64,000 bases of DNA, from IMG/VR virus record IMGVR_UViG_3300044267_003392. One strand, given 5' to 3'. This DNA comes from an uncultured virus (IMG/VR IMGVR_UViG_3300044267_003392) (taxonomy: Duplodnaviria > Heunggongvirae > Uroviricota > Caudoviricetes). Numbering within the stretch: the first letter of the stretch is position 1; the number at the start of each line of letters is the position of its first letter. The notes beneath the pieces were generated by a model. The model saw only the letters and a list, made by a program, of their open reading frames with translations. It was not told where the DNA came from and did not search any database. Positions 4,723-56,920 of the stretch are shown in pieces. The translations under genes and the position numbers were made by a program.

Positions 4723-7700
4723 ACTAAACTCCCTATACCTTTTTTAGTAAACGGATTGTCATTCATGCCTTGTTGTGGTTTGACATATTTACCTTGGTTA
4801 TTCATTATTGGATTCATTTCCATTAGCCCACCTCCTGCGGCGTATTGTGTTCCGCCACCATACTGTGCAGCAAGTGCTGCATCTGTATTACCTGTATATA
4901 ACGCGCCAGCTGCTGCTGGGTTAAAATTCTGGTTCCTATTTATCACCGACCCTGCACTGGCAGAATCATAACCGCCGACAGAAGCATCTGCTGCTTCTGG
5001 TGCAAACTGTGGTGCACCTAACGGTGGTGATTGACTAGGTAATAAATCTAATATTTTAGGATTAAGAGGACTGTCAAATATTTTTCCTGGAATAGATGGT
5101 GCTTGTTGTATTGCCTCTCCTATGCCCTCCATAACGTTTTGTCTTGTTGATTTTACTTTTTGTGCAACTCTAGAATTTCTGTTGTATTCTTTTTGTACTT
5201 GTTCCATTTCTGCAAGGTCTGCATCAAACGCTGCAAACTCTTCTGGATACATTCTAACTAATCTAGCAAAGTTTGCTTGTCTAATTGTGCTAGGTAGATT
5301 TACATCAGTTAAATTTTTTAACACTCTAATTGCAACTGGATTTGTTAAAACTTTACCGCCATAGTTAATTAAAAATGCTGCGGCACTTGCCATTAAAGGA
5401 CCTACGCCAATAACACCTGCACCCTCTGCCACACCTCTGCCAATTGCAGTCGATGGTAATAAAGAACGTGCAGCTCCTCTAGTTCCGGCCATTGTTGCAC
5501 GACGCATCATAAACTTAGAACCACTAGGCACACCGTTTTCAAATAACTTTTCTAATACTCTTGTTAAATCATCAAACTCTGCTAACGTTGGTAACCTTGT
5601 TGCATTTGTTTTCATCATGCCTTCAGGAACTTCTTCCCCTAATATTTCTTTTAAACCTTTACCTACACCAGTTTCATATATTTCATCATCAAACTTTTTA
5701 AATATTCCTGTTGCTGGATCAAATATTTCTAATTTAGATACTGTTGGTCCTGGTAATGCTTCTTTAAATAATCTATTTAATGGTCCAGTTGTTCCTATAC
5801 CAAGTGCACCTCTAAATGCTGCTGCGTCAAAAAACTGTACTCCTTCTTTTTCTTTTATTGCTGCATCAAAAGAATCTCTTATGTACATACCTAAACCATT
5901 TACATATCCACGGTCGCCTACAATTCTTCTAAGTGCTTGTATTTCTGCTTTACTATTAGGATTGCCTGCTCTTGCAGATTTAATTACTGTATCCCATAAA
6001 CTATGTGAACCACGTGTCGTGCTATTATTAAGTACAACACCAAATCCTCTTGTTGCAACTTCACCACCAGCTGCTGCTTTACCCACGTTGGTTCCGTATA
6101 ACATTAAACCTGATGATACAAATTTATCGTACGCATCAAAAGCTTTTGCCACGTCAGGATAACCCATTCTTTCTATTGATGCTACATCATTTTCCCACGC
6201 TTTCATTAATCTTGATATGTCATCTGCATAAGATGTTTCTGCTAATGTCTTATCTTTAAGTGGTGCTAGTAAATCATCAAGTTGTTCACGTAATCCTTTC
6301 ATTTGGTATACGTCACGTAAGCCATGTGTTCTGCCTTCGCCAACTGGTTTTATTATTTGGTTTTTTAAAACATTAATTAATTTATCACGAACTTCTGATG
6401 GTATAATATTACCAGATGGATCTCTTTGTAGTTTTAATTCATATTCTCTTAATGTTTGTTTAGCAACATTAACTAAATTTTCATCAGAAAAACCTTTGCC
6501 CATGCCTTCTGCAGCTTTAACAAAATCATCTTCTAATTGTTTTGCATGTGCAACAAAACCTCTATAGTTTTTAGATGCCAAGAAAGAAAAGTCATCTATC
6601 ATTTCATCTAAGTGTGCATACGGTGCGAACGCACCAATCATTTTTCTCATGACACCATCAATGTAAAAGTCACTTTGTTTTGCCATGTTGTTTTTTATAC
6701 TAATACCAAATATAGGAGCTGGTGATAGCATAGACGATATTTTGCCACCAAATCCACCGCCAACACTTGTACGTGCAACCATAGTGCCACCTATTTCTGC
6801 AGCTTCAGGAAACCATTCGTTAGTGCCAGGCTTTATTGGATCACGTGGACCAAGCCAATTAAATGCTTTTGAATTAGATAAACGAAATAAAAAATTACCA
6901 AGACCAAGTGGCATGTTGTATGATAATTTTTCTTTTGGTTGTTTTAATCCTTTTGTTGCAACTTGATCAAGCTCACTTTGTGAAGGCATCCATCGTTCTA
7001 ATATTCTTTGTTCACCTTCTAATATTTCTTTACCACTAACAACTCCTGGTGCTTTACTAGGTTTTTGTTTAAACATACCAAATGGGTATGTGCCTACTGT
7101 TCTTCTTAAACCATAAAACGTTGGTCTAAGTGCAAAGAAACCTGAAGTTAATCCTGCATCCCATATTGCTGCACTTGTAGCATTTTTAACTCTTTCCATT
7201 TGTTCTGGTCTATTAATACCTTGTGGTCCAAACGTTAATGCGTCCGGCACAACTGATGCTAATGCTGCATCAACAAGACTAGCTTGTTGATTAGGGTCAC
7301 GCATGTATCCTTTTGCTTTACCGGCTCTGTCCATAAGATCTAACATGCCTTCGTAACCATAATCTGCTACTCCAACAGCTAAAGCTCCACCAGTAACTGC
7401 TCCTACAGATCTTGCAAACCAGTTGCCTTTTGATTTTGCAAATGACTTTGCTGCACCTTTTAAAAATTTATCTCTTACAAGTTTTTCACCTTTTACAGAT
7501 CCTGCAATACCACCAGCAATATACATACTAGCTTCTACTGCCGGATAAGGATTAGGATTGTTTGTGAATAATCCTATGCCGTCACGTAAATCTTGTACTT
7601 CAGGTGTTAGTACAACATAATCATTTTCTGGTGTTAAACCTTCGTTAGCAAGTAAATCATTTGTTGCTTGTGTAGCTAGATCTAAAAATTTACTATCACC

Positions 7701-10045: not shown

Positions 10046-11053
10046 CTACCCTGTCATGTTTTGATAGCCCTGATATGCAGCGAGACCTGAAATTCCAGCT
10101 CCTACAGTCTGCGCCAATGGATTGCTGCCTGGTGCAGTTCCCATTGATATAGCCATGGCTCCAGATGGTACGTTACCTTGATAGATATCAGAAGTAAATC
10201 CTAGTCGTTGGTATGGTTCATAAATTTGTTGCAACTGTTGTTGGTACTGTGCATCCGTTAACTGTTGTTCACGTTGCTGTTGTATTGAACCAGCAGACAT
10301 TAGAGATCCAATATCTGTTAATCCTTGTTGTTGCACTTGACCACCAAGACCAGCCATTTGTTGAGCTGCTGCTCCGTATCTCCCCATTTGATTGTCAAAT
10401 CTTTGTTGCGCCATTTGTTGCGCTTGTCCGTAATTTTGTGCTTGTGCAGATCCAACAGCTAATGCTTGTTGCCTATCTAATTCTGCACGTTGTATTCCTT
10501 CACGTTCTGTGCCAAAAGCACCCTGTGTTCCTGCACCAGCTGCTGCTTGATTTCTAGCTTTTTCAAATTGTTGTTCTATGCCTGCAATAACTTCATCTTG
10601 GAATGGATTCATGTATTGTTGGTATGATGAAGGGTCGTATGCTTGTGTTGCTAATTGTGTTAGTTGTGTTGACTGGTTTAAAAAAGGTTGGTATGCACCA
10701 ATACCAGCTTGTGCTTGTTGAAAAGCTTGTTGTTGTAACGGATCAAACTCTGCTACACCTTGTGTAGGTATATCAACTTGTCCTTCACGCATTCTCTGTT
10801 CTCTTGTAAGATCAGAATACTTTGTGCCTTCAGCATACTTGCCGTCAGTGCCAGTGTATTTGTATTCGCCGTAGCCTTCGTCACCAGGTTTTAAAGTTGG
10901 ATCAACAGCCTCAAAAGGACTCATACCAAACATGGTATATTCTTTTGCGGCATCCATTAAGCCTAGCTTAGCTGCTTCTATTTGTGGCGCGTCACGTTGA
11001 TACGTTGTTTGAAACTGTGTATTCTGTGGACTATCGCCTGCACCAAAACTCAT
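10046..11053 (-). CDS. Gln/Ala-rich DNA transfer (pilot/ejection) protein
   Basis: YMNPFQDEVI and GAFG motifs, Q/A-rich coiled coil, C-terminal glycine-zipper GAGISGLAAY. Confidence 0.6.
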   Translation of the reverse strand: MSFGAGDSPQNTQFQTTYQRDAPQIEAAKLGLMDAAKEYTMFGMSPFEAVDPTLKPGDEGYGEYKYTGTDGKYAEGTKYSDLTREQRMREGQVDIPTQGVAEFDPLQQQAFQQAQAGIGAYQPFLNQSTQLTQLATQAYDPSSYQQYMNPFQDEVIAGIEQQFEKARNQAAAGAGTQGAFGTEREGIQRAELDRQQALAVGSAQAQNYGQAQQMAQQRFDNQMGRYGAAAQQMAGLGGQVQQQGLTDIGSLMSAGSIQQQREQQLTDAQYQQQLQQIYEPYQRLGFTSDIYQGNVPSGAMAISMGTAPGSNPLAQTVGAGISGLAAYQGYQNMTG

Positions 11054-46199: not shown

Positions 46200-47650
46200 T
46201 AATAGTACTCCCTCCCTCCGACTTGTGTCGTTTTCTCATCTTCGTAATCATCTTTTAACCCAACATAGTAGCCTTGTCTATATTTCATTAAAGCTTGCGT
46301 GGTAGAATCCACGTAGTCATCGTGATCACCGAAAGGAAACGCTGCGCATTCTTCTATCACTTCCTCGGCGAACTTTTTATTGGGCGCCCATATAGCTCCT
46401 GACTCAAATAGTGGAGCCACGCTGTTTACCCTCGAGTGTTTATCATTTCCTCGTGAGGGTGTATAATTTATAACAGGTATTCCTGCTTTTTGCAACTCAT
46501 GAGTGAGTGGCATGCCAGATGCCTTTGCTTCTATCAAAATTGTCTCCGGTTCCCAGTATTTATATTCTTCTTGTGCTATTTGTTTTAGTTCAGGAAAGTT
46601 CCAACGTCCTTTTTTCGCGTCCAGTAGAATTAATGCTTGCGGACCACCTTCTTCAGGCTCAAATACGCCCCATGTTGTTATTGCCGAGTAATCGGCTGTC
46701 TCTTTTGCACTAAACGCTGTATCATAGCTTTGTATAATGTATTTTAGGTGCGGAATTGTATCTTCTTCCCATGTTTGCCACCATTCACGTTTTATAAGTG
46801 CACCTTCCTCGGATGTAGGCTGTTGCATCCACTGTGCTTGCCATTTTGACTCTGGAATAGATGCCTTGACACCTTGTAGACCTTTCATGGTCCAAAAATT
46901 ACCCCACATGGGTTTGTCATTTATAATTGCAGGGAATTCGACAACTTCCCATTGATCAGAATCTTCTGCCTTACCCTGGGCCTCGAGCAGCCGTCCAGTG
47001 AGATCTTTTATTGACCATCTTGTCATAACGACAACGATTGAACCGCCAGGTTGTAGACGTTGACGCGGACCGGATGTATACCATTCGTAATGTGAGTCTA
47101 GAACGGCCGGCGAAAGTGCATCTTGCTCGGAATGAGGGTCATCAATGATAAGTAAGTCTGCACCACGTCCTGTAATCGCACCACCCACACCTGCAGCGAA
47201 GTATTCACCGCCATGGTTTGACTCCCAACGGCCGGCGGCCTTTGAATCAGCTGCTAATCTGACTGTAGGGAAAACTGTTTCGTACTCTGGCGACTCTATA
47301 ACGTTCTTGGCCTTCCGACCGAACCTAATTGCCAGTTCGCCTGTGTGTGTTGTTTGGATAAGCTTGGCCTTTGGATGGTTGCCCATGTAAAATGCAGGAA
47401 AAAGGTTAGATGCGAACTCCGATTTTGTATGTCGGGGTGGCATATTGACAATAAGGCGCTTTAATTCGCCTTTTGCAATACGATTTAGCTTCTCTGCGTA
47501 GATGCGATGGTGTTTTCCTTCTATAAAATCAGGCCAAACAGTCTTGACAAACGATAAAAAATCATTTTGTGACTTTTCTTGCTTGTCTAACAGCGCATTT
47601 TTAAGAATATACTTTAAAGTTTGGGTATCAAGCGTCTCTAAATTGCTCAT
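46199..47650 (-). CDS. terL: Terminase large subunit
   Basis: Walker A NMPPRHTKSE, GRGADLLIIDDP (Walker B), MTRW, nuclease SYDTAF and HDDYVDS. Confidence 0.93.
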   Translation of the reverse strand: MSNLETLDTQTLKYILKNALLDKQEKSQNDFLSFVKTVWPDFIEGKHHRIYAEKLNRIAKGELKRLIVNMPPRHTKSEFASNLFPAFYMGNHPKAKLIQTTHTGELAIRFGRKAKNVIESPEYETVFPTVRLAADSKAAGRWESNHGGEYFAAGVGGAITGRGADLLIIDDPHSEQDALSPAVLDSHYEWYTSGPRQRLQPGGSIVVVMTRWSIKDLTGRLLEAQGKAEDSDQWEVVEFPAIINDKPMWGNFWTMKGLQGVKASIPESKWQAQWMQQPTSEEGALIKREWWQTWEEDTIPHLKYIIQSYDTAFSAKETADYSAITTWGVFEPEEGGPQALILLDAKKGRWNFPELKQIAQEEYKYWEPETILIEAKASGMPLTHELQKAGIPVINYTPSRGNDKHSRVNSVAPLFESGAIWAPNKKFAEEVIEECAAFPFGDHDDYVDSTTQALMKYRQGYYVGLKDDYEDEKTTQVGGREYY

Positions 47651-48285
47651 TTTTGCTCTTTTAAGTCATAAAAATAGTTTTCATCGTCGCCAGCAGTCCA
47701 TTTTGACTTATTTTCAACAGAATAATACTCTGTTGACACTTTAAAATCAGGCTGCGTCGTTTCTGACGGCGTTAATGACTTATCGTAGAATATAACACGG
47801 TTATTTGGCTGTGCTGCGTAATGACCATTGTCCAATTCTAGTATGTTAAACGATTTATGCTCCTCTGGGACCTCAGAATAAGATGTGTTTAAGGTGTTAC
47901 TGTCCGCATGGCAGTTGTCAATCGTAAACAAGTATTCACCATAGTACCATTTTTTTGAGGGCGCAAGGAATTTACATCTAACGCCGGAAAGCGAAGCTTT
48001 TTCTACAATAGTAAAGTGATAGCTAAACGCATCCCACAGTTCTAGTTCTTCTAAAGGAAGATCTTGATCAGTAGGGGCAGTGACAAAAGCACTAATAGGG
48101 AGCTTATCGTATAAAGCACCATATTCCGGCAGATACGTTTCAAAGTAAAGTGCTCGACCTTGGATAGATTTACAGCTAACCCAAACACCTTCTACAAATT
48201 CTCCTTGTCCTTTTTTGTGATCATATAAATATTGTTTTTTTACAAACACCTTTATAGGTGGTAAGTTCGCAACTAAAAAAGCCAT
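47647..48285 (-). CDS. Conserved hypothetical phage protein
   Basis: 212 aa. GALYDKLPISAF, GEYLFTID and EHKSFN...NG..AAQPNNR motifs. ATGA-coupled to TerL. Confidence 0.7.
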   Translation of the reverse strand: MAFLVANLPPIKVFVKKQYLYDHKKGQGEFVEGVWVSCKSIQGRALYFETYLPEYGALYDKLPISAFVTAPTDQDLPLEELELWDAFSYHFTIVEKASLSGVRCKFLAPSKKWYYGEYLFTIDNCHADSNTLNTSYSEVPEEHKSFNILELDNGHYAAQPNNRVIFYDKSLTPSETTQPDFKVSTEYYSVENKSKWTAGDDENYFYDLKEQK

Positions 48286-51507: not shown

Positions 51508-51920
51508 TTTAACTCCAAAATACAATAATTTGACTCTTTACCCATGAACTCGTAATACCTTCGTAATACCTGGTATCCCTTATCCCATATAGAGAATTGG
51601 CAAAAGGTATTACGGTATTGGCAAATCCCGGTAAATAAAAAAACAAAAAAACTTTTTAGCATCCAGCGCACAATACAATACCTATGGTAATACGACAATA
51701 CTTCTCTTCGAATATGGTATATCGTCAACATATCCGCGCTTTTTTAGTGCTTGCACGTATGCATGCACATTACTCTTTGACTTCATGTTATTCATTTGTT
51801 TTAACTCTTCGTACGATGGAGAATAGCCATTTGCCTCTATAAAATCCTTAATTTTAGCTAAAAAATTCATCTGTTTTGGTGTTAATCCTTTCTTATTACT
51901 CATAATACCTCGCCAATACC
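51431..51920. repeat. Cluster of GTAATAC / CAATAC motifs in both orientations
   Basis: GTATTAC at 51431, 51443, 51607; GTAATAC at 51552, 51563, 51687; CAATAC-type at 51615 (reverse), 51671, 51676, 51696, 51914. Confidence 0.6.
51682..51903 (-). CDS. Stand-alone LexA-type winged-helix DNA-binding domain
   Basis: LTPKQ..FL..I..FI..NGYSPSYEEL......KSKSNVH.....L.KRGY......KRSI. No peptidase domain. Confidence 0.8.
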   Translation of the reverse strand: MSNKKGLTPKQMNFLAKIKDFIEANGYSPSYEELKQMNNMKSKSNVHAYVQALKKRGYVDDIPYSKRSIVVLP

Positions 51921-53383: not shown

Positions 53384-53487
53384 AACCCTATCATGTATAA
53401 AAATATTTTATACACCCATATCAATAAATAAAAAGCAACATACAATTTTATAGGTATTAATAAAAACCAAAATAATGTCCAGGTCAT
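53380..53487 (-). CDS. 35-aa hydrophobic peptide (not in ORF track)
   Basis: MTWTLFWFLLIPIKLYVAFYLLIWVYKIFLYMIGL*, ATGA overlaps at both ends. Confidence 0.5.
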   Translation of the reverse strand: MTWTLFWFLLIPIKLYVAFYLLIWVYKIFLYMIGL

Positions 53488-53723
53488 GTGCGTATCGCTA
53501 TGTATTCATAATCAAAGTCAGCGTGTTTCTTTTGCACTAATAATAACAAACCATTATCTGCCATAGAATAAACTGTGCTGCCTAATTTTTTTACGCGATC
53601 ACGATCATTTGTTGGCGCTATTGGCTGTAGAAAAGGATCACATAAGTAACCGCGGTAATATGTTATCTTATCACCTTTGTTAGATTTATTTAACCAGGTG
53701 TGTATTGCTTTTTGACTCATCAT
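53484..53723 (-). CDS. Hypothetical protein (ITYYRG and LVQKK...YEYIA motifs)
   Basis: 79 aa, directly downstream of the structured RNA. Confidence 0.65.
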   Translation of the reverse strand: MMSQKAIHTWLNKSNKGDKITYYRGYLCDPFLQPIAPTNDRDRVKKLGSTVYSMADNGLLLLVQKKHADFDYEYIAIRT

Positions 53724-53737
53724 AATAATTTCTTTTT

Positions 53738-53922
53738 GAGTAGGGGGGTTCTTTGACTACCCCCAACCTTTTCCCGTCCAGTCAACATTTCCTATGCTAA
53801 CAAGTACTTCAGTACCAACCCTCACACCCTCAGTCATTCGACCATACCTTGTGAGAGCCGTGCCTTACAACCTGGAGACTGTTGTTCAGCCATACTCGGA
53901 GAATGTTGCACCATCCTCATTT
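53738..53922 (-). ncRNA. ~185-nt highly structured RNA (multi-helix junction)
   Basis: Own promoter. Seven or more helices with many G-U pairs on the minus strand. Long-range GAGUA(53897-53893)/UACUC(53742-53738) closing helix. Confidence 0.75.
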
Positions 53923-53928
53923 ACGTGT

Positions 53929-53957
53929 ATTATACCATTTTTACCAAAACATTACAA
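53929..53957 (-). promoter_or_regulatory. sigma70-type promoter for the structured RNA
   Basis: TTGTAA(53957-53952)-N17-TATAAT(53934-53929) with TGn extension. Confidence 0.75.
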
Positions 53958-54060
53958 GAACATTATTTCGCAGATTTCTGCGGCAAATCGTGTCAAGAAA
54001 AAACTTTACTTGTCACGCCTTGTAACATATAACTAAATTCTCAACTTCATTTCACCCAGT

Positions 54061-54462: not shown

Positions 54463-55224
54463 ATGAAAAACAACATAATATTATTAGTATTACTAACTTT
54501 TATACTTAGTGTAAGCACTGTGTCATTTGCCAACGACACAAATTCACAGACAAATACTTCTGGTTCCAATACAAATATTACGGGTGGATACACGGCTACC
54601 ACAACAAACAATAACGACGGACAAACAAACACAACTACGTCAACAACAACGAATTCAACAACATCTAACGCATCAGATATACCACCACCATCTGCTAACT
54701 CACCATCTTACTCGTCCATGAGCCAAGATGTGTGCTCCATGGGTATTAGTGGATCTGTTTCTACTGGTGTTTTTGGTTTATCGGGGGGCAAACATGTGGT
54801 CGATGAAAACTGCGAGCGTATAAAATTAGCCAAGGTCCTTCAAGATTTCGGCATGAAGGTTGCAAGCGTGGCGGTGCTTTGTCAAGACAAACGTGTATTT
54901 GCAGCCATGGAAGCTGCAGGCACACCATGCCCATACTCAGGCCTCATAGGTCCACAGGCCGCGGAAATGTGGGAAAAATACCCTGAACTTAGACCTGATT
55001 ACGAAGAACATCTTGCTAAAGAACAAGTAGTCGCTAAAATAAATGCTGAAATTGCAGAAAAAGAAAGAATAGAGGCAGAGAGAATAGCTGCCGAAGAGGC
55101 AGAAGCAGCAAGAATAGAGGCAGAAAGAATTGAACAAGAACTACTTACATTAAAGGAAGAAAATGAAGTTAACGATATCGAGCCTGTTATTGACCCTGTG
55201 CCTGTTAACATGCACGGCGAATAG
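54463..55224 (+). CDS. Exported protein, Thr/Asn-rich linker plus four-Cys domain
   Basis: Sec signal ending SFA, GGAGG RBS. PPPSANSPS..QDVC...DENCERIKL...LCQD.RVF.AM..AGTPCP. Confidence 0.75.
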   Translation: MKNNIILLVLLTFILSVSTVSFANDTNSQTNTSGSNTNITGGYTATTTNNNDGQTNTTTSTTTNSTTSNASDIPPPSANSPSYSSMSQDVCSMGISGSVSTGVFGLSGGKHVVDENCERIKLAKVLQDFGMKVASVAVLCQDKRVFAAMEAAGTPCPYSGLIGPQAAEMWEKYPELRPDYEEHLAKEQVVAKINAEIAEKERIEAERIAAEEAEAARIEAERIEQELLTLKEENEVNDIEPVIDPVPVNMHGE

Positions 55225-56920
55225 TGTAGAAGTAACTACAGGAAATTTATTACCAAACGCAAATGATGGTGTAGACTGGGGATCCAGTAGCACAGATCAA
55301 ATACATTCTGGATCTAGTTCCGGTTACGTTACCAACGGCAGCACTGTAGGTGGATTTGATATTACTTGTACTAATCAATCTAACTGTGGATATAAATACA
55401 GCGTAGGTGGTGATTTTGAAGTAACAGGTGATACTACAGTATCTGTTGAAGATGTAGGATTAACAACAAACTCCATAACACAACAAATGTTAGATAATGG
55501 TGTAACATTAAATAGTCACATTGACGTTGCAAACTGCGAAAGCACAGAAGGTAATTGTGAATCTAAAGGCGGTGCAAATGACACACATACAACCACAATA
55601 GTATTAAAAGATTCAAGTGGTAATGTACTAAGTACAACAACACAGACAAGAAACGAAGTTACAGGATTCCAAGGTAATTGTAATGGTTATCCGGGCTCAA
55701 GTGCCGCTGGCATATCGTCAGCATGTGGGCAGTACACTGACACAGTTACACACAACGATGTGGGTGCAAACAAGTTTGATTGGTCATGGCGTGGTGTTGA
55801 CAGTAATTATACTAATCAATCTAGACAAGGACCAAACTTACTTGGTGCAAAGGTTACAATGACCTACAACAACACCGAGTACAATCCAATAGACGATGAC
55901 GCAGCTGATGCAATAGATGACATAGAAGAAAATATACCTGACATACCAGAAGATATATTTGAAGAACCAGATTTTACATTTGAAGAAGAATATTTTACGT
56001 GGGAAGATGATTTTTATTTTGAGGATGATTTTTTTGAAGAAGATTTTACCGTGTATGAAATGCCAGAAGAATTTCAAATTATAGAGATGCCAGAAGAATT
56101 TGAAGAAATGGCCATGGAAATGCCAGAAGAAATGCCTGACATGGAAATGCCTGCAGACATGGAAGACGCATTTACAATCATATCAGAAGAAATGCCAGAA
56201 ATGGAGATGACAGAAGAACCTACTGAAATGGAGATGGAAGAAGAATTTGTGGAAATGGAAATGGAGGAAGATAAACCAAACATGGAAGAAGTCAAGGAAG
56301 AACCTGCAGAAATGGACATGGCAGAAGAAGAAACTGTTGACATGGAGATGAAAACAGAGGAAGATACCATGGAAATGCCTGAAGAAGAGGCAGAAGAAAT
56401 GGAGGTAGCTGAAAATGAAGATACCATGGAAGACCCCAAAGAGGATGAAGAATCTAGCGAAGGTTCTGAAGAAACACTGGAAGAAGAGTCGGGATCGGAA
56501 GAAAGCGTTTCAGAGACTGCTTCGAATGAAGAAAAGACAGTGGGAGACACAGATGTTGCTGACAAAGGAGGAATCAAGACTAAGAATATCGAAGTCAGCA
56601 AGAATATAAAGATTAAAGACGTGGATGTCGGTGAAATAAAAATAACCGTCAACCCAAAAGATATATTTAAGGAGGTCGTTAGCCTAGATTCATACGAAAG
56701 TAAGGATTTTTACAAGGATAAGGGCCTCCAATACAAAGTAAATGACGATTTCTTTGACCAAGCAAGCATGATTCAATACAACAAAGAAATATACACAAAT
56801 GTTACTTTAATAGCCTACATACAGACAGATCCGGTGACTGTGTACAAACAGGAGCTGGAAGAATTGGCTATACAAAAAGCTGGAATTATGATAGAATTAA
56901 AGCTCTTGAGAGGAGAATAG
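55163..56920 (+). CDS. Exported protein with Cys-paired beta domain and long Glu/Met-rich acidic region
   Basis: Signal peptide ending ANS. EMPEE-type repeats. C-terminal coiled coil. Confidence 0.75.
   Translation: MKLTISSLLLTLCLLTCTANSVEVTTGNLLPNANDGVDWGSSSTDQIHSGSSSGYVTNGSTVGGFDITCTNQSNCGYKYSVGGDFEVTGDTTVSVEDVGLTTNSITQQMLDNGVTLNSHIDVANCESTEGNCESKGGANDTHTTTIVLKDSSGNVLSTTTQTRNEVTGFQGNCNGYPGSSAAGISSACGQYTDTVTHNDVGANKFDWSWRGVDSNYTNQSRQGPNLLGAKVTMTYNNTEYNPIDDDAADAIDDIEENIPDIPEDIFEEPDFTFEEEYFTWEDDFYFEDDFFEEDFTVYEMPEEFQIIEMPEEFEEMAMEMPEEMPDMEMPADMEDAFTIISEEMPEMEMTEEPTEMEMEEEFVEMEMEEDKPNMEEVKEEPAEMDMAEEETVDMEMKTEEDTMEMPEEEAEEMEVAENEDTMEDPKEDEESSEGSEETLEEESGSEESVSETASNEEKTVGDTDVADKGGIKTKNIEVSKNIKIKDVDVGEIKITVNPKDIFKEVVSLDSYESKDFYKDKGLQYKVNDDFFDQASMIQYNKEIYTNVTLIAYIQTDPVTVYKQELEELAIQKAGIMIELKLLRGE

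What the first reader, a model, noticed from the sequence alone, without database searches (positions are those of the whole stretch)
53738..53957. Large, densely folded non-coding RNA with its own promoter and tRNA-like ends
Seen on the minus strand after TTGTAA-N17-TATAAT: a hairpin GAGGAUG/CAUUCUC, then a junction closed by GAGUA/UACUC about 150 nt apart. Inside are GCU-ga-ACAAC/GUUGU-aa-GGC, GGCUCUCACA/UGUGAGGGUU capped by UGGUC-gaau-GACUG, GGUAC-ugaa-GUACU, GUUAGCAU-aggaa-AUGUUGAC and GGGGGU/ACCCCC. Helices abut with 0-2 nt linkers, and numerous G-U pairs fix the strand. Loop UCCA can pair with single-stranded UGGA (possible pseudoknot). The ends (GAGUA-UG-GCUGA ... GGGGG-loop-CCCCC-UACUC) echo tRNA acceptor/D/T geometry but lack TTCRA and an anticodon arm. 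Inference: ribozyme, riboswitch-like leader or tRNA mimic. It may match a known marine orphan motif (e.g. manA, IMES) or be new; I cannot tell without a search.
Basis: partly seen in the sequence, partly recalled or inferred. Interest (0 to 1): 0.85.

Follow-up and report, generated by a model that had tools for sequence, protein, structure and literature searches.

The report
Pelagiphage cousin of the manA RNA
The flagged stretch is a real, intricately folded RNA of about 185 bases at the very start of a marine phage's main transcript, and it belongs to an uncatalogued branch of the manA RNA family, whose job in the cell is still unknown.

Summary
Window 53738-53918 (minus strand) lies just after a TTGTAA-17-TATAAT promoter with an upstream TG. 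It encodes a structured RNA kept in at least 120 marine viral contigs. On 99 distinct copies, 92.3% of pair cells are paired and 32 of 43 pairs show compensatory double changes. Slid controls reach at most 45%.

Its GGUAC/GUACU hairpin is not supported. One helix register is shifted, and nothing is tRNA-like.

The only Rfam relative is manA (RF01745), always below its cut-off of 55.2 bits. The window scores 30.6 bits; 21 of 40 related loci score 26.7-47.4. My model finds 0 of 80 loci fetched with a manA consensus pattern. This is a sister branch carried by SAR11-type phages, including the cultured HTVC008M.

It sits 40 nt or less before unrelated genes in 75 of 99 loci, with no terminator and no pairing to the ribosome-binding region. 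A gene-specific riboswitch is therefore unlikely.

New here are a second loop-to-strand pairing that competes with a covarying hairpin, and a palindromic apical loop. Both fit the loop-mediated self-assembly that a 2026 preprint reports for manA in vitro. Function is untested.

The scan's earlier notes describe other manA-like phage RNAs, but none with this sequence.

The parts
53929..53957 (-). Sigma-70-type promoter: TTGTAA, 17 nt, TG-n-TATAAT (extended -10)
   Evidence: 10 of 12 matches, TG present. In relatives, -10-like hexamers peak 45-50 nt upstream of the closing stem.
53899..53918 (-). P0, the 5' hairpin: 7-bp stem 53918-53912 / 53905-53899, with loop GUGCAA that holds the palindrome UGCA
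   Evidence: 95 of 95 distinct upstream segments have a perfect stem of at least 5 bp, with 62 distinct stems, and every loop holds a 4-nt palindrome. P0 is not part of model R1.
53738..53897 (-). Core domain enclosed by closing stem P1 (53897-53893 with 53742-53738)
   Evidence: Model R1 scores the window 157.6 bits. P1 has 5 of 5 pairs with double changes and 90.7% of cells paired.
53862..53890 (-). P2 hairpin: P2a 53890-53888 / 53864-53862, conserved internal loop (GAACA opposite AA), P2b 53882-53878 / 53871-53867. Its loop carries the 5' strand of pseudoknot 1 (UCCAG, 53876-53872).
   Evidence: helices 99-100% paired. The same sequence signature appears in the manA consensus. The pseudoknot is supported.
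53816..53860 (-). P3 long stem (53860-53851 / 53825-53816), a conserved internal loop, and a capping hairpin (53843-53840 / 53835-53832)
   Evidence: 10 of 10 stem pairs and 3 of 4 cap pairs show double changes.
53805..53816 (-).
   Evidence: no covariation, and changes break the drawn pairs.
53774..53804 (-). P5 arm: P5a 53804-53803 / 53775-53774; P5b 53801-53794 (strand X) / 53788-53781 (strand Y). The 3' side carries the pseudoknot-1 strand CUGGA (53781-53777).
   Evidence: helices 6 and 7; X with Y: 0 of 5000 permutations reach the observed value; for the pseudoknot strand.
53780..53785 (-). UUGACU, the part of strand Y that can pair either with X (the P5b hairpin) or with the P6 loop (pairing 2)
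   Evidence: 67 distinct loop/strand combinations; 0 of 5000 permutations; duplex energies -5.1 and -5.3 kcal/mol on average.
53743..53764 (-). P6 hairpin (53764-53760 / 53747-53743) with loop UAGUCAAAGAAC. AGUCAA (53758-53753) is complementary to UUGACU.
   Evidence: helix 8. The loop begins UA and ends AA(U/C), as in the manA consensus.
53484..53723 (-). First downstream gene (79 aa, no family match). Its ATG lies 14 nt after P1, and it heads a minus-strand gene run of about 54 kb.

Best explanation
This is the window's copy of an uncatalogued, pelagiphage-borne branch of the manA RNA family.

Shown:
- It follows a strong extended -10 promoter and forms the first ~185 nt of the leftward transcript.
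- It folds into a 5' hairpin plus a multi-helix junction closed by a 5-bp stem.
- The loop of P2 pairs with a 5-nt strand on the 3' side of the P5 arm (pairing 1).
- The loop of P6 is complementary to the strand just beside it (pairing 2). That same strand also forms a covarying hairpin with the 5' side of the arm, so the arm has two mutually exclusive states.

Inferred: it is a self-contained RNA module, not a sensor for one pathway. As the 2026 preprint reports for canonical manA in vitro, its exposed loops probably pair with partner strands on neighbouring copies. That would build a compact particle or a defined multimer. The palindromic P0 loop would serve as a two-fold contact, and the P5b hairpin as a closed state that opens on assembly.

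My confidence by layer: real structured RNA about 0.97; manA relative outside the Rfam family about 0.85; self-association as the working principle about 0.35-0.4. The role in infection is unknown.
For: Reality and structure
- 99 of 99 searched sources score 102-162 bits with R1.
- 92.3% of cells are paired, 32 of 43 pairs show double changes, and the covariation score is 0.579 against at most 0.128 when partners are slid.

Pairing 1
- 99 of 99 copies have at least 5 contiguous complementary bases, against 16% with swapped partners.
- 0 of 5000 type-level permutations reach the observed value.
- On fixed columns, 84% are paired against 24-56% when slid.

Pairing 2 and its competitor
- Both are significant (0 of 5000 permutations each) while five control region pairs are not.
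- Covarying variants are listed.
- Mean duplex energies are similar, -5.1 and -5.3 kcal/mol.

P0 loop
- All 95 distinct loops hold a 4-nt palindrome, and the core changes from UGCA to UCGA, UAUA or CAUG. The chance expectation is 0.29 per loop.

manA kinship
- Full-length alignment to RF01745 at E 6.6e-6, sharing the stem-UG-CUGAAYAA...GUAAGG and UUG-G..GGUA...AAUCC..C-stem signatures.

manA assembly
- Preprint 10.64898/2026.07.01.735769 (passages, outline and section 8 read).
- It reports pentamer-based decamers and a 60-mer, held by intermolecular kissing loops L5-L7', L8-L9' and L3-L8'.
- By my mapping of its numbering onto the Rfam consensus, L3 is my P2 loop, P8 my P5 arm and L9 my P6 loop. 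Pairings 1 and 2 therefore sit where its L3-L8' and L8-L9' contacts sit.

Not gene-specific
- 26 unrelated downstream protein clusters.
- One copy stands alone, antisense to its neighbours.
Against: - Sequence covariation cannot tell pairing within one molecule from pairing between copies. Both pairings could be ordinary intramolecular pseudoknots.
- The assembly of manA is shown only in vitro, at high RNA and Mg concentration. It was shown for RNAs that score 150-197 bits with Rfam where this one scores 30.6.
- My mapping of helix numbers rests on the preprint's text. I could not see its figures or supplements.
- In 75 of 99 loci the RNA is fused to an mRNA, 40 nt or less before a start codon. 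That suits a cis-acting leader and makes a closed cage awkward unless the RNA is cut off, and I have no evidence of cutting.
- UGCA is mostly inherited, so the palindrome argument rests on only three alternative cores.
- The RNA is dispensable. 3 of 36 informative orthologous loci lack it and 1 keeps only a remnant. The cultured relatives HTVC027P and HTVC023P lack it.
Confidence: 0.45

Rival explanations
1. It is a cis-acting riboswitch or other ligand- or condition-sensing leader. The two mutually exclusive states of the P5 arm are the switch, and they modulate translation or stability of the first gene of the operon.
For: - It is promoter-proximal and lies 40 nt or less upstream of a same-strand start codon in 75 of 99 loci.
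- It has a complex fold with many invariant unpaired bases.
- Two covarying, mutually exclusive helices of similar strength exist.
- Weinberg et al. 2010 rated manA a probable riboswitch (PMC2864571, passages).
Against: - Neither kind of expression platform I looked for was found. Terminator-like hairpins within 110 nt occur in only 8 of 99 loci, most 48-91 nt past the RNA.
- No RNA element is more complementary to the 50-nt tail holding the start region than swapped controls.
- The competing helices both lie inside the closing stem.
- Downstream genes fall into 26 unrelated clusters, so there is no shared pathway to regulate.
- One copy has no downstream gene at all.
Confidence: 0.25
2. It is a fixed, purely intramolecular double-pseudoknot cap at the 5' end of early phage mRNAs. 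It would protect them from host 5'-end-dependent RNases, or set up ribosome loading on messages with weak ribosome-binding sites.
For: - It starts within a few bases of the predicted transcription start.
- It is followed by a short A/U-rich linker and then the start codon.
- It occurs in front of many unrelated, mostly tiny early-type genes.
- It is optional between close relatives, as an accessory module would be.
- Earlier notes of this scan describe other phage leader pseudoknots read this way (leads only).
Against: - About 185 nt with this many invariant single-stranded bases, a conserved palindromic loop and two competing helices is far more than end protection needs.
- This reading does not explain why strand Y keeps two partners.
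- The stand-alone antisense copy in phage 023Pt_psg01 protects no message.
Confidence: 0.2
3. It is a tRNA mimic or RNase P substrate.
For: Only a loose resemblance: a closing stem next to a G/C-rich 3' hairpin.
Against: - ARAGORN finds no tRNA or tmRNA in the window.
- Rfam gives no tRNA-clan hit even at E up to 10.
- The 3' hairpin loop of 12 nt matches the manA loop rather than a 7-nt T-loop.
- There is no anticodon arm and no CCA-like end.
Confidence: 0.03

Closest known systems
manA RNA motif (Rfam RF01745; Weinberg et al. 2010, PMC2864571; cryo-EM preprint 10.64898/2026.07.01.735769)
   Same: - A 5' hairpin followed by a junction closed by a 5-bp stem.
- The closing stem runs through UG into a hairpin with the CUGAAYAA / (G)UAAGG internal loop.
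- GGUA follows the long stem.
- UUG leads into a 3' hairpin G..GG / CC..C with a loop beginning UA and ending AAU, directly abutting the closing stem.
- The loop of that 3' hairpin is complementary to the preceding arm.
- Both are marine phage RNAs mostly in 5' leaders.
   Different: - It never reaches the family cut-off. Scores are 25.9-47.4 bits against 55.2, while 15 of 20 pattern-fetched loci tested score 152-197.
- My model finds 0 of 80 pattern-fetched loci.
- The long stem carries one capped hairpin where manA has three, including its GNRA loop.
- The 3'-hairpin loop pairs with the 3' strand of the arm, not with its apical loop, and that strand has a covarying competitor.
- The first hairpin has a conserved palindromic loop, against GAcg in the manA consensus.
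- Its carriers are SAR11-type phages rather than cyanophages or Photobacterium.
Riboswitch aptamers with pseudoknots, as a class
   Same: A promoter-proximal leader position, a complex conserved junction with long-range pairings, and mutually exclusive helices.
   Different: I found no terminator or start-site sequestration, no shared downstream pathway and no candidate ligand.
T4 gene 32 mRNA leader pseudoknot, an autogenous translational operator (recalled; not read here)
   Same: A subset of copies sits upstream of single-strand DNA-binding protein genes. These are gp32-like in 9 of 95 loci and in HTVC008M, and gp2.5-like in 3.
   Different: The RNA is far larger and has a different fold. 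Most copies precede unrelated genes. No binding was tested.

Membership tests
manA RNA (RF01745) | Score at or above Rfam's gathering threshold (55.2 bits) | tested here: not met
   - There are 0 hits at gathering in the whole window.
- The window scores 30.6 bits.
- 14 of 20 related loci score 30.9-40.7 bits, 7 of 20 score 26.7-47.4, and HTVC008M scores 25.9.
- 15 of 20 loci fetched with the manA consensus pattern score 152-197 bits.
manA RNA (RF01745) | Closing stem, UG, then a hairpin with the CUGAAYAA / UAAGG internal loop | tested here: met
   cmscan alignments. The helices are 99-100% paired in 99 copies. The 12-nt block was fixed by my search pattern, so its invariance in the alignment is not independent evidence.
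manA RNA (RF01745) | 3' hairpin G..GG/CC..C with a UA...AAU loop, preceded by UUG and abutting the closing stem | tested here: met
   In helix 8, 2 of 5 pairs show double changes.
manA RNA (RF01745) | Three hairpins inside the long stem (the preprint's P5-P7, including the GAAA loop) | tested here: not met
   Only one capped hairpin is present. cmscan skips this region with local ends, whereas the full consensus aligns.
manA RNA (RF01745) | Loop of the 3' hairpin complementary to the apical loop of the preceding arm | tested here: inconclusive
   The complementarity exists and covaries, but it is to the 3' strand of the arm and competes with a hairpin. In the manA consensus it is loop to loop (aCUgu with acAgu).
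manA RNA (RF01745) | Recognised reciprocally by a model of this RNA | tested here: not met
   R1 finds 0 matches at E <= 1 in 80 loci fetched with the manA consensus pattern, using default filters.
manA RNA (RF01745) | Forms pentamer-based homo-oligomers | not testable with these tools
   Reported only for canonical members in vitro.
Riboswitch | Expression platform coupled to the aptamer | tested here: not met
   Terminator-like hairpins occur in 8 of 99 loci. No element is complementary to the start region beyond swapped controls.
Riboswitch | Consistent association with genes of one pathway | tested here: not met
   26 unrelated clusters occur among 95 downstream ORFs.
Riboswitch | Binds a small-molecule ligand | not testable with these tools
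   No assay is available.
tRNA-like element | Cloverleaf elements or a T-loop recognised by tRNA finders | tested here: not met
   ARAGORN finds 0. There is no tRNA-clan match at E up to 10.

The most novel reading that the evidence does not exclude
During infection of SAR11 cells, pelagiphages make an RNA that self-assembles into defined RNA-only multimers, possibly cage-like as reported for manA in vitro. The contacts would be the P2-loop and P6-loop pairings plus a palindromic P0 loop on two-fold axes. The covarying P5b hairpin would act as a built-in lock that keeps the monomer closed until assembly. That would make it a regulated, protein-free quaternary structure in the most abundant virus-host system of the ocean.
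Probability: 0.15. Interest if true: 0.9.

Novelty: new variant of a known kind. Interest (0 to 1): 0.62.

Why it matters
manA is a sixteen-year-old orphan RNA. A 2026 preprint has just reported that it builds RNA-only decamers and a 60-subunit shell in vitro, but nobody knows what it does in cells.

This branch extends the family from cyanophages to phages of SAR11-type hosts. It is present in at least 120 viral contigs.

It also occurs in a phage that can be grown with its host, HTVC008M on Pelagibacter HTCC1062. The in vivo question is therefore directly testable there.

The branch shows which parts of the fold are indispensable. It also adds two features absent from the Rfam manA consensus: a competing hairpin and a palindromic loop. 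Both give concrete handles for mutagenesis.

It also flags a likely mis-annotated gene in HTVC008M.

Tried and rejected
- **blastn against 50,697 phage records.** The window RNA found nothing. Two other classes, L045 and L019, also found nothing.
- **Nearest held virus record, G001.** It does not contain this region. The window's own assembly is not held.
- **Other Rfam hits at E up to 10.** L20 leader scored 25.1 bits on the plus strand against a cut-off of 58.7. The others were snoRNAs and DUF2815. I rejected all as sub-threshold chance matches.
- **Genome-collection pattern scan.** It returned 26 stretches. I judged 24 to be chance from the flanking sequence printed, by eye and not with R1. 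Only L162 and L166 were confirmed with R1.
- **A pair I first built into R1.** Alignment columns 106-158 are better explained as part of pairing 1, so helix 6 is really 2 pairs in most copies.
- **Expression platform.** Terminators and start-site pairing were both rejected.
Rejected.
- **Metatranscriptome runs.**
  - Contigs of 3 of the 4 runs laid, each from a different study, cover the RNA: 53732-53912, 53737-53905 and 53737-53849. Their flanks are unlike the window.
  - This shows that relatives' RNA sequence is present in RNA libraries. It does not show a discrete transcript, its ends or its level.
  - Run X7 gave no contig.
- **The scan's earlier findings.** Nothing was found by place or by sequence.
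- **Not used.** The metagenome-contig scan, protein structure prediction and complex prediction were left out as not bearing on the RNA.

Full report
**What is there**

On the minus strand, a sigma-70-type promoter lies upstream of a 335-nt gene-free stretch. It reads TTGTAA at 53957-53952, a 17-nt spacer, then TG-n-TATAAT at 53937-53929. The stretch ends at the ATG (53723) of a 79-aa ORF, which heads a minus-strand run of genes down to the start of the window. Those genes include small and large terminase and portal, so the window is phage DNA. Genes on the other side run the opposite way. The RNA therefore sits at a divergence point.

**Is it more than chance?**

- The minus strand folds to -61.1 kcal/mol, z -2.37 against 200 dinucleotide shuffles, with 1 shuffle as good. 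The plus strand gives z -1.46. That alone is modest.
- The decisive evidence is comparative. A search with the downstream 79-aa protein gave 37 loci in IMG/VR. My model R1 later found the RNA in 28 of them complete, in 4 cut by a contig end, and as a remnant in 1 (L023, 22.5 bits). It is absent from L017, L021 and L022, where the same promoter runs straight into the gene. L037 has no upstream DNA.
It also hit 26 stretches in 185,579 species genomes.
  - Only two of those are real: a 13-kb contig of an uncultured alphaproteobacterial single-cell genome and a 9.8-kb contig binned with a planctomycete.
  - I judged the other 24 to be chance by eye. The two real ones were confirmed with R1 at 160.2 and 130.8 bits.
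- Before aligning, I dropped 5 loci with odd spacing, copies cut by contig ends or holding N, duplicates, and 25 of the 26 genome-scan loci: the 24 judged chance, plus L166, whose copy holds N. That left 111 distinct sequences.
- I built R1 (167 positions, 43 pairs) from 47 representatives below 88% identity. I then searched 99 sources below 97% identity. All 99 matched at 102-162 bits.
- On that alignment:
  - 92.3% of 4218 pair cells form standard pairs, against 70.3% when shuffled.
  - 32 of 43 pairs show changes on both sides, in 856 cells.
  - The covariation score is 0.579, against 0.086-0.128 when partners are slid by 1-3 columns.
  - The alignment was fitted to the model and so leans toward it. 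The raw MAFFT alignment already gave 81.8% against 37-46% slid.

**Corrected anatomy**

| Element | Window coordinates (minus strand) |
|---|---|
| P0 hairpin | 53918-53912 / 53905-53899 |
| Closing stem P1 | 53897-53893 / 53742-53738 |
| P2a | 53890-53888 / 53864-53862 |
| P2b | 53882-53878 / 53871-53867 |
| P3 | 53860-53851 / 53825-53816 |
| P3 cap | 53843-53840 / 53835-53832 |
| Conserved junction GGUACUGAAGUA | 53816-53805 |
| P5a | 53804-53803 / 53775-53774 |
| P5b | 53801-53794 / 53788-53781 |
| P6 | 53764-53760 / 53747-53743 |

- Its ACAAC/GUUGU register is 3 nt off. The 3' partner column covaries with the base 3 nt further in: AU 46, UA 34, GU 10, CG 5, GC 2, UG 2.
- Its GGUAC/GUACU hairpin has no support: 0 double changes and 79.3% paired against 79.4% shuffled.
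- P0 is a perfect stem of at least 5 bp in 95 of 95 distinct upstream segments, with 62 different stems.

**Long-range pairings**

  - The P2 loop (UCCAG, 53876-53872) pairs with CUGGA (53781-53777).
  - All 99 copies have at least 5 contiguous complementary bases, against 16% with swapped partners.
  - Among 11 independent types, own partners average 5.00 against 3.29 +/- 0.26 permuted, and 0 of 5000 permutations reach the observed value.
  - On fixed columns, 84% are paired against 24-56% slid.
  - By eye the variants include ACAAG/CUUGU, GCAAA/UUUGC, AAGAG/CUCUU, AAGCG/CGCUU, AGCUA/UAGCU and CCUAA/UUAGG.
- *Pairing 2 is new.*
  - The middle of the P6 loop (AGUCAA, 53758-53753) is complementary to UUGACU (53785-53780).
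  - It covaries across classes: GGUCAUG/CAUGAUU, GGUCACA/UGUGAUU, CCAAU/AUUGG, AUCCA/UGGAU, UCAUCCA/UGGAUGA and CCAAG/CUUGG.
  - Across 25 types the own-partner mean is 5.32 against 4.29 +/- 0.18, with 0 of 5000 permutations reaching it.
- *The two partners compete.*
  - That same strand is the 3' half of P5b, which itself covaries. 7 of 8 pairs show double changes, and across 38 types 0 of 5000 permutations reach the observed value.
  - The two partners are mutually exclusive and about equally strong, with mean duplex energies of -5.1 and -5.3 kcal/mol.
- Five control region pairs show nothing.
- These permutation tests do not correct for shared ancestry.

**The P0 loop**

Every one of the 95 loops holds a 4-nt palindrome. 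It is mostly UGCA, but UCGA in 4, UAUA in 1 and CAUG in 1. Random loops of the same length and composition hold one 29% of the time. Because UGCA is mostly inherited, only the three alternative cores count as independent events. This is suggestive and no more.

**Relation to manA**

- At gathering thresholds Rfam 15 finds nothing in the window.
- With E-value reporting, manA (RF01745) aligns over its full 192 positions at 30.6 bits, against a cut-off of 55.2, with E 6.6e-6 for the 901 bases searched.
- 14 of 20 related loci score 30.9-40.7 bits and 7 of 20 others score 26.7-47.4. None passes the cut-off.
- Of loci fetched with a pattern from the manA consensus, 15 of 20 tested score 152-197 bits. 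R1 finds none in all 80 such loci.
- The shared parts are:
  - the closing stem running through UG into the CUGAAYAA/UAAGG hairpin;
  - GGUA after the long stem;
  - UUG plus the 3' hairpin with a UA...AAU loop.
- The differences are:
  - one hairpin where manA has three;
  - a remodelled penultimate arm;
  - the competing helix;
  - the palindromic first loop.
- I read this as a sister branch, not as a member of the Rfam family.

**Carriers and context**

- *Phage relatives by large terminase.* The best matches are Pelagibacter phage HTVC027P (67.5% identity), metagenomic phage 023Pt_psg01 (64.2%) and HTVC023P (58.4%).
- *Which of these carry the RNA (R1).*
  - 023Pt_psg01 has it at 99.8 bits. 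HTVC027P, HTVC023P and DSL-LC04 do not.
  - In 023Pt_psg01 the copy lies antisense between plus-strand genes. It has its own TTGACA-17-TATATA promoter, read by eye, because the scan did not list it. It has no credible downstream gene.
- *A cultured carrier.*
  - A different class of the RNA is 87% identical to a stretch of the T4-like Pelagibacter phage HTVC008M.
  - There R1 scores one copy at 131.7 bits (5056-5224). It lies 72 nt upstream of the gp32-like SSB gene and overlaps an annotated 56-aa hypothetical CDS.
- *Host genomes.* The single-cell genome that holds a copy has relatives of 1.0-1.5 Mb, and 0 of the 40 searched carry the RNA. The RNA therefore travels with phages, not with hosts.
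- *Downstream genes.*
  - Among the 99 copies, 95 have a same-strand ORF starting within 400 nt and 75 have one within 40 nt.
  - The ORFs fall into 26 unrelated clusters.
  - The clusters include the 79-aa protein (33), gp32-like SSB (9), a gp2.5-like SSB (3), DUF6378, an HTH protein and many tiny unknowns.
- *Promoters.* Hexamers resembling a -10 box peak 45-50 nt upstream of P1, which is just before P0.
- *Expression platform.* Terminator-like hairpins follow in only 8 of 99 loci. No RNA element pairs with the start region more than swapped controls do.
- *RNA libraries.* Contigs from marine metatranscriptomes of three studies cover the RNA with divergent flanks. This shows presence in RNA libraries and nothing more.

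**How it most likely works**

Shown: a promoter-proximal, covariation-supported fold with two long-range pairings, and an arm that has two exclusive states.

Inferred: the diversity of downstream genes, the lack of a platform and the stand-alone copy argue against a pathway-specific riboswitch.

The July 2026 preprint reports that canonical manA RNAs form pentamer-based decamers and a 60-mer in vitro. The contacts are intermolecular kissing loops L5-L7', L8-L9' and L3-L8' (I read passages, the outline with abstract, and section 8, but saw no figures or supplements). I mapped its numbering onto the Rfam consensus. The GAAA loop is its L6, which fixes the count. On that mapping, my pairing 1 corresponds to L3-L8' and pairing 2 to L8-L9'.

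I therefore favour a self-contained module whose loops pair with partner strands, possibly on neighbouring copies. The palindromic P0 loop is a candidate two-fold contact, and the P5b hairpin a closed state. The same covariation fits purely intramolecular pseudoknots, and most copies are fused to an mRNA. I hold this at about 0.35-0.4. The riboswitch-type leader stands at about 0.25, and a fixed protective or translation-setting cap at about 0.2.

**Literature**

- Weinberg et al. 2010 (PMC2864571, passages) describe manA as a riboswitch candidate of marine metagenomes, T4-like cyanophages and two gamma-proteobacteria, with a questioned pseudoknot.
- PMC9964418 (passages) lists a cyanophage manA at 100.6 bits.
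- Three searches turned up no paper describing a pelagiphage manA-like RNA or an in vivo function for manA: manA with wcaG or cyanophage, manA motif or riboswitch, and pelagiphage with RNA-motif terms.
- PMC12753301 (passages) covers transcriptomes of HTVC022P and HTVC027P and does not mention HTVC008M.
- The loop-E reading of the internal loops and the T4 gene 32 comparison are recalled, not tested.

**Limits**

- There was no R-scape or phylogeny-aware test.
- The 12-nt and 8-nt blocks used as the search pattern are invariant by construction. The collection is therefore biased toward copies that keep them.
- The bioRxiv supplements were closed, and they may hold secondary structures that would confirm or correct my helix mapping.

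Noticed in passing
L313 1473-1643 (Pelagibacter phage HTVC008M record 4993-5163): An annotated 56-aa 'hypothetical protein' CDS overlaps the 5' hairpin and first half of the RNA (R1 hit at record 5056-5224, 131.7 bits). It is probably a mis-called gene over a non-coding RNA.
   Followed up: partly
L310 1394-1700 (phage 023Pt_psg01 record 10193-10500, minus strand): A stand-alone copy of the RNA lies antisense between plus-strand genes. It is preceded by a terminator-like hairpin and by its own TTGACA-17-TATATA promoter, and it ends 7 nt from the stop codon of the convergent gene. Its core block reads TGGCAGAAC, not TGGCUGAAC.
   Followed up: partly
L017, L021, L022 and L023 (upstream of the 79-aa gene orthologue): Three relatives lack the RNA cleanly, with the promoter running straight into the gene. 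L023 keeps only the capped hairpin of P3 as a remnant (22.5 bits). The RNA therefore behaves as an insertable and deletable cassette of about 190 nt.
   Followed up: partly
window 53969-53996: A second -35-like TTGACA (53996-53991) is followed by a small inverted repeat CGCAG-AAAU-CUGCG (53982-53969) upstream of the RNA's promoter. A similar arrangement is seen in relatives that lack the RNA. It could be a tandem promoter or an operator.
   Followed up: no
window 51682-51903 (-): A 73-aa protein consists of only a LexA-type DNA-binding domain (PF01726, 47.5 bits). It lies in the same operon and is a candidate phage repressor.
   Followed up: no
window 47647-48285 (-): A gene matching PHROG 3704, labelled ferredoxin / auxiliary metabolic gene (E 6e-99), lies directly upstream of the large terminase gene.
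   Followed up: no
window 55163-56920 (+): A 585-aa ORF has a long, extremely acidic, repetitive middle part (runs of E, M, P, D) and no family match. The neighbouring 253-aa ORF has a Thr/Asn-rich N-terminus.
   Followed up: no
L190 159-232 and L204 621-691: Canonical manA copies in viral contigs lie within about 50 nt or less of tRNA genes (Rfam tRNA 57 and 52 bits).
   Followed up: no
L029, L030, L024, L018 (between the RNA and the start codon): Some relatives carry an extra 40-90-nt insert, in two cases a long perfect hairpin, between the RNA and the downstream gene.
   Followed up: no
L040-type loci and L045-type loci: Two unrelated families of single-strand DNA-binding protein genes follow the RNA. 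They are gp32-like (PF08804, 9 loci) and gp2.5-like (3 loci). This recalls the T4 gene 32 leader operator.
   Followed up: partly
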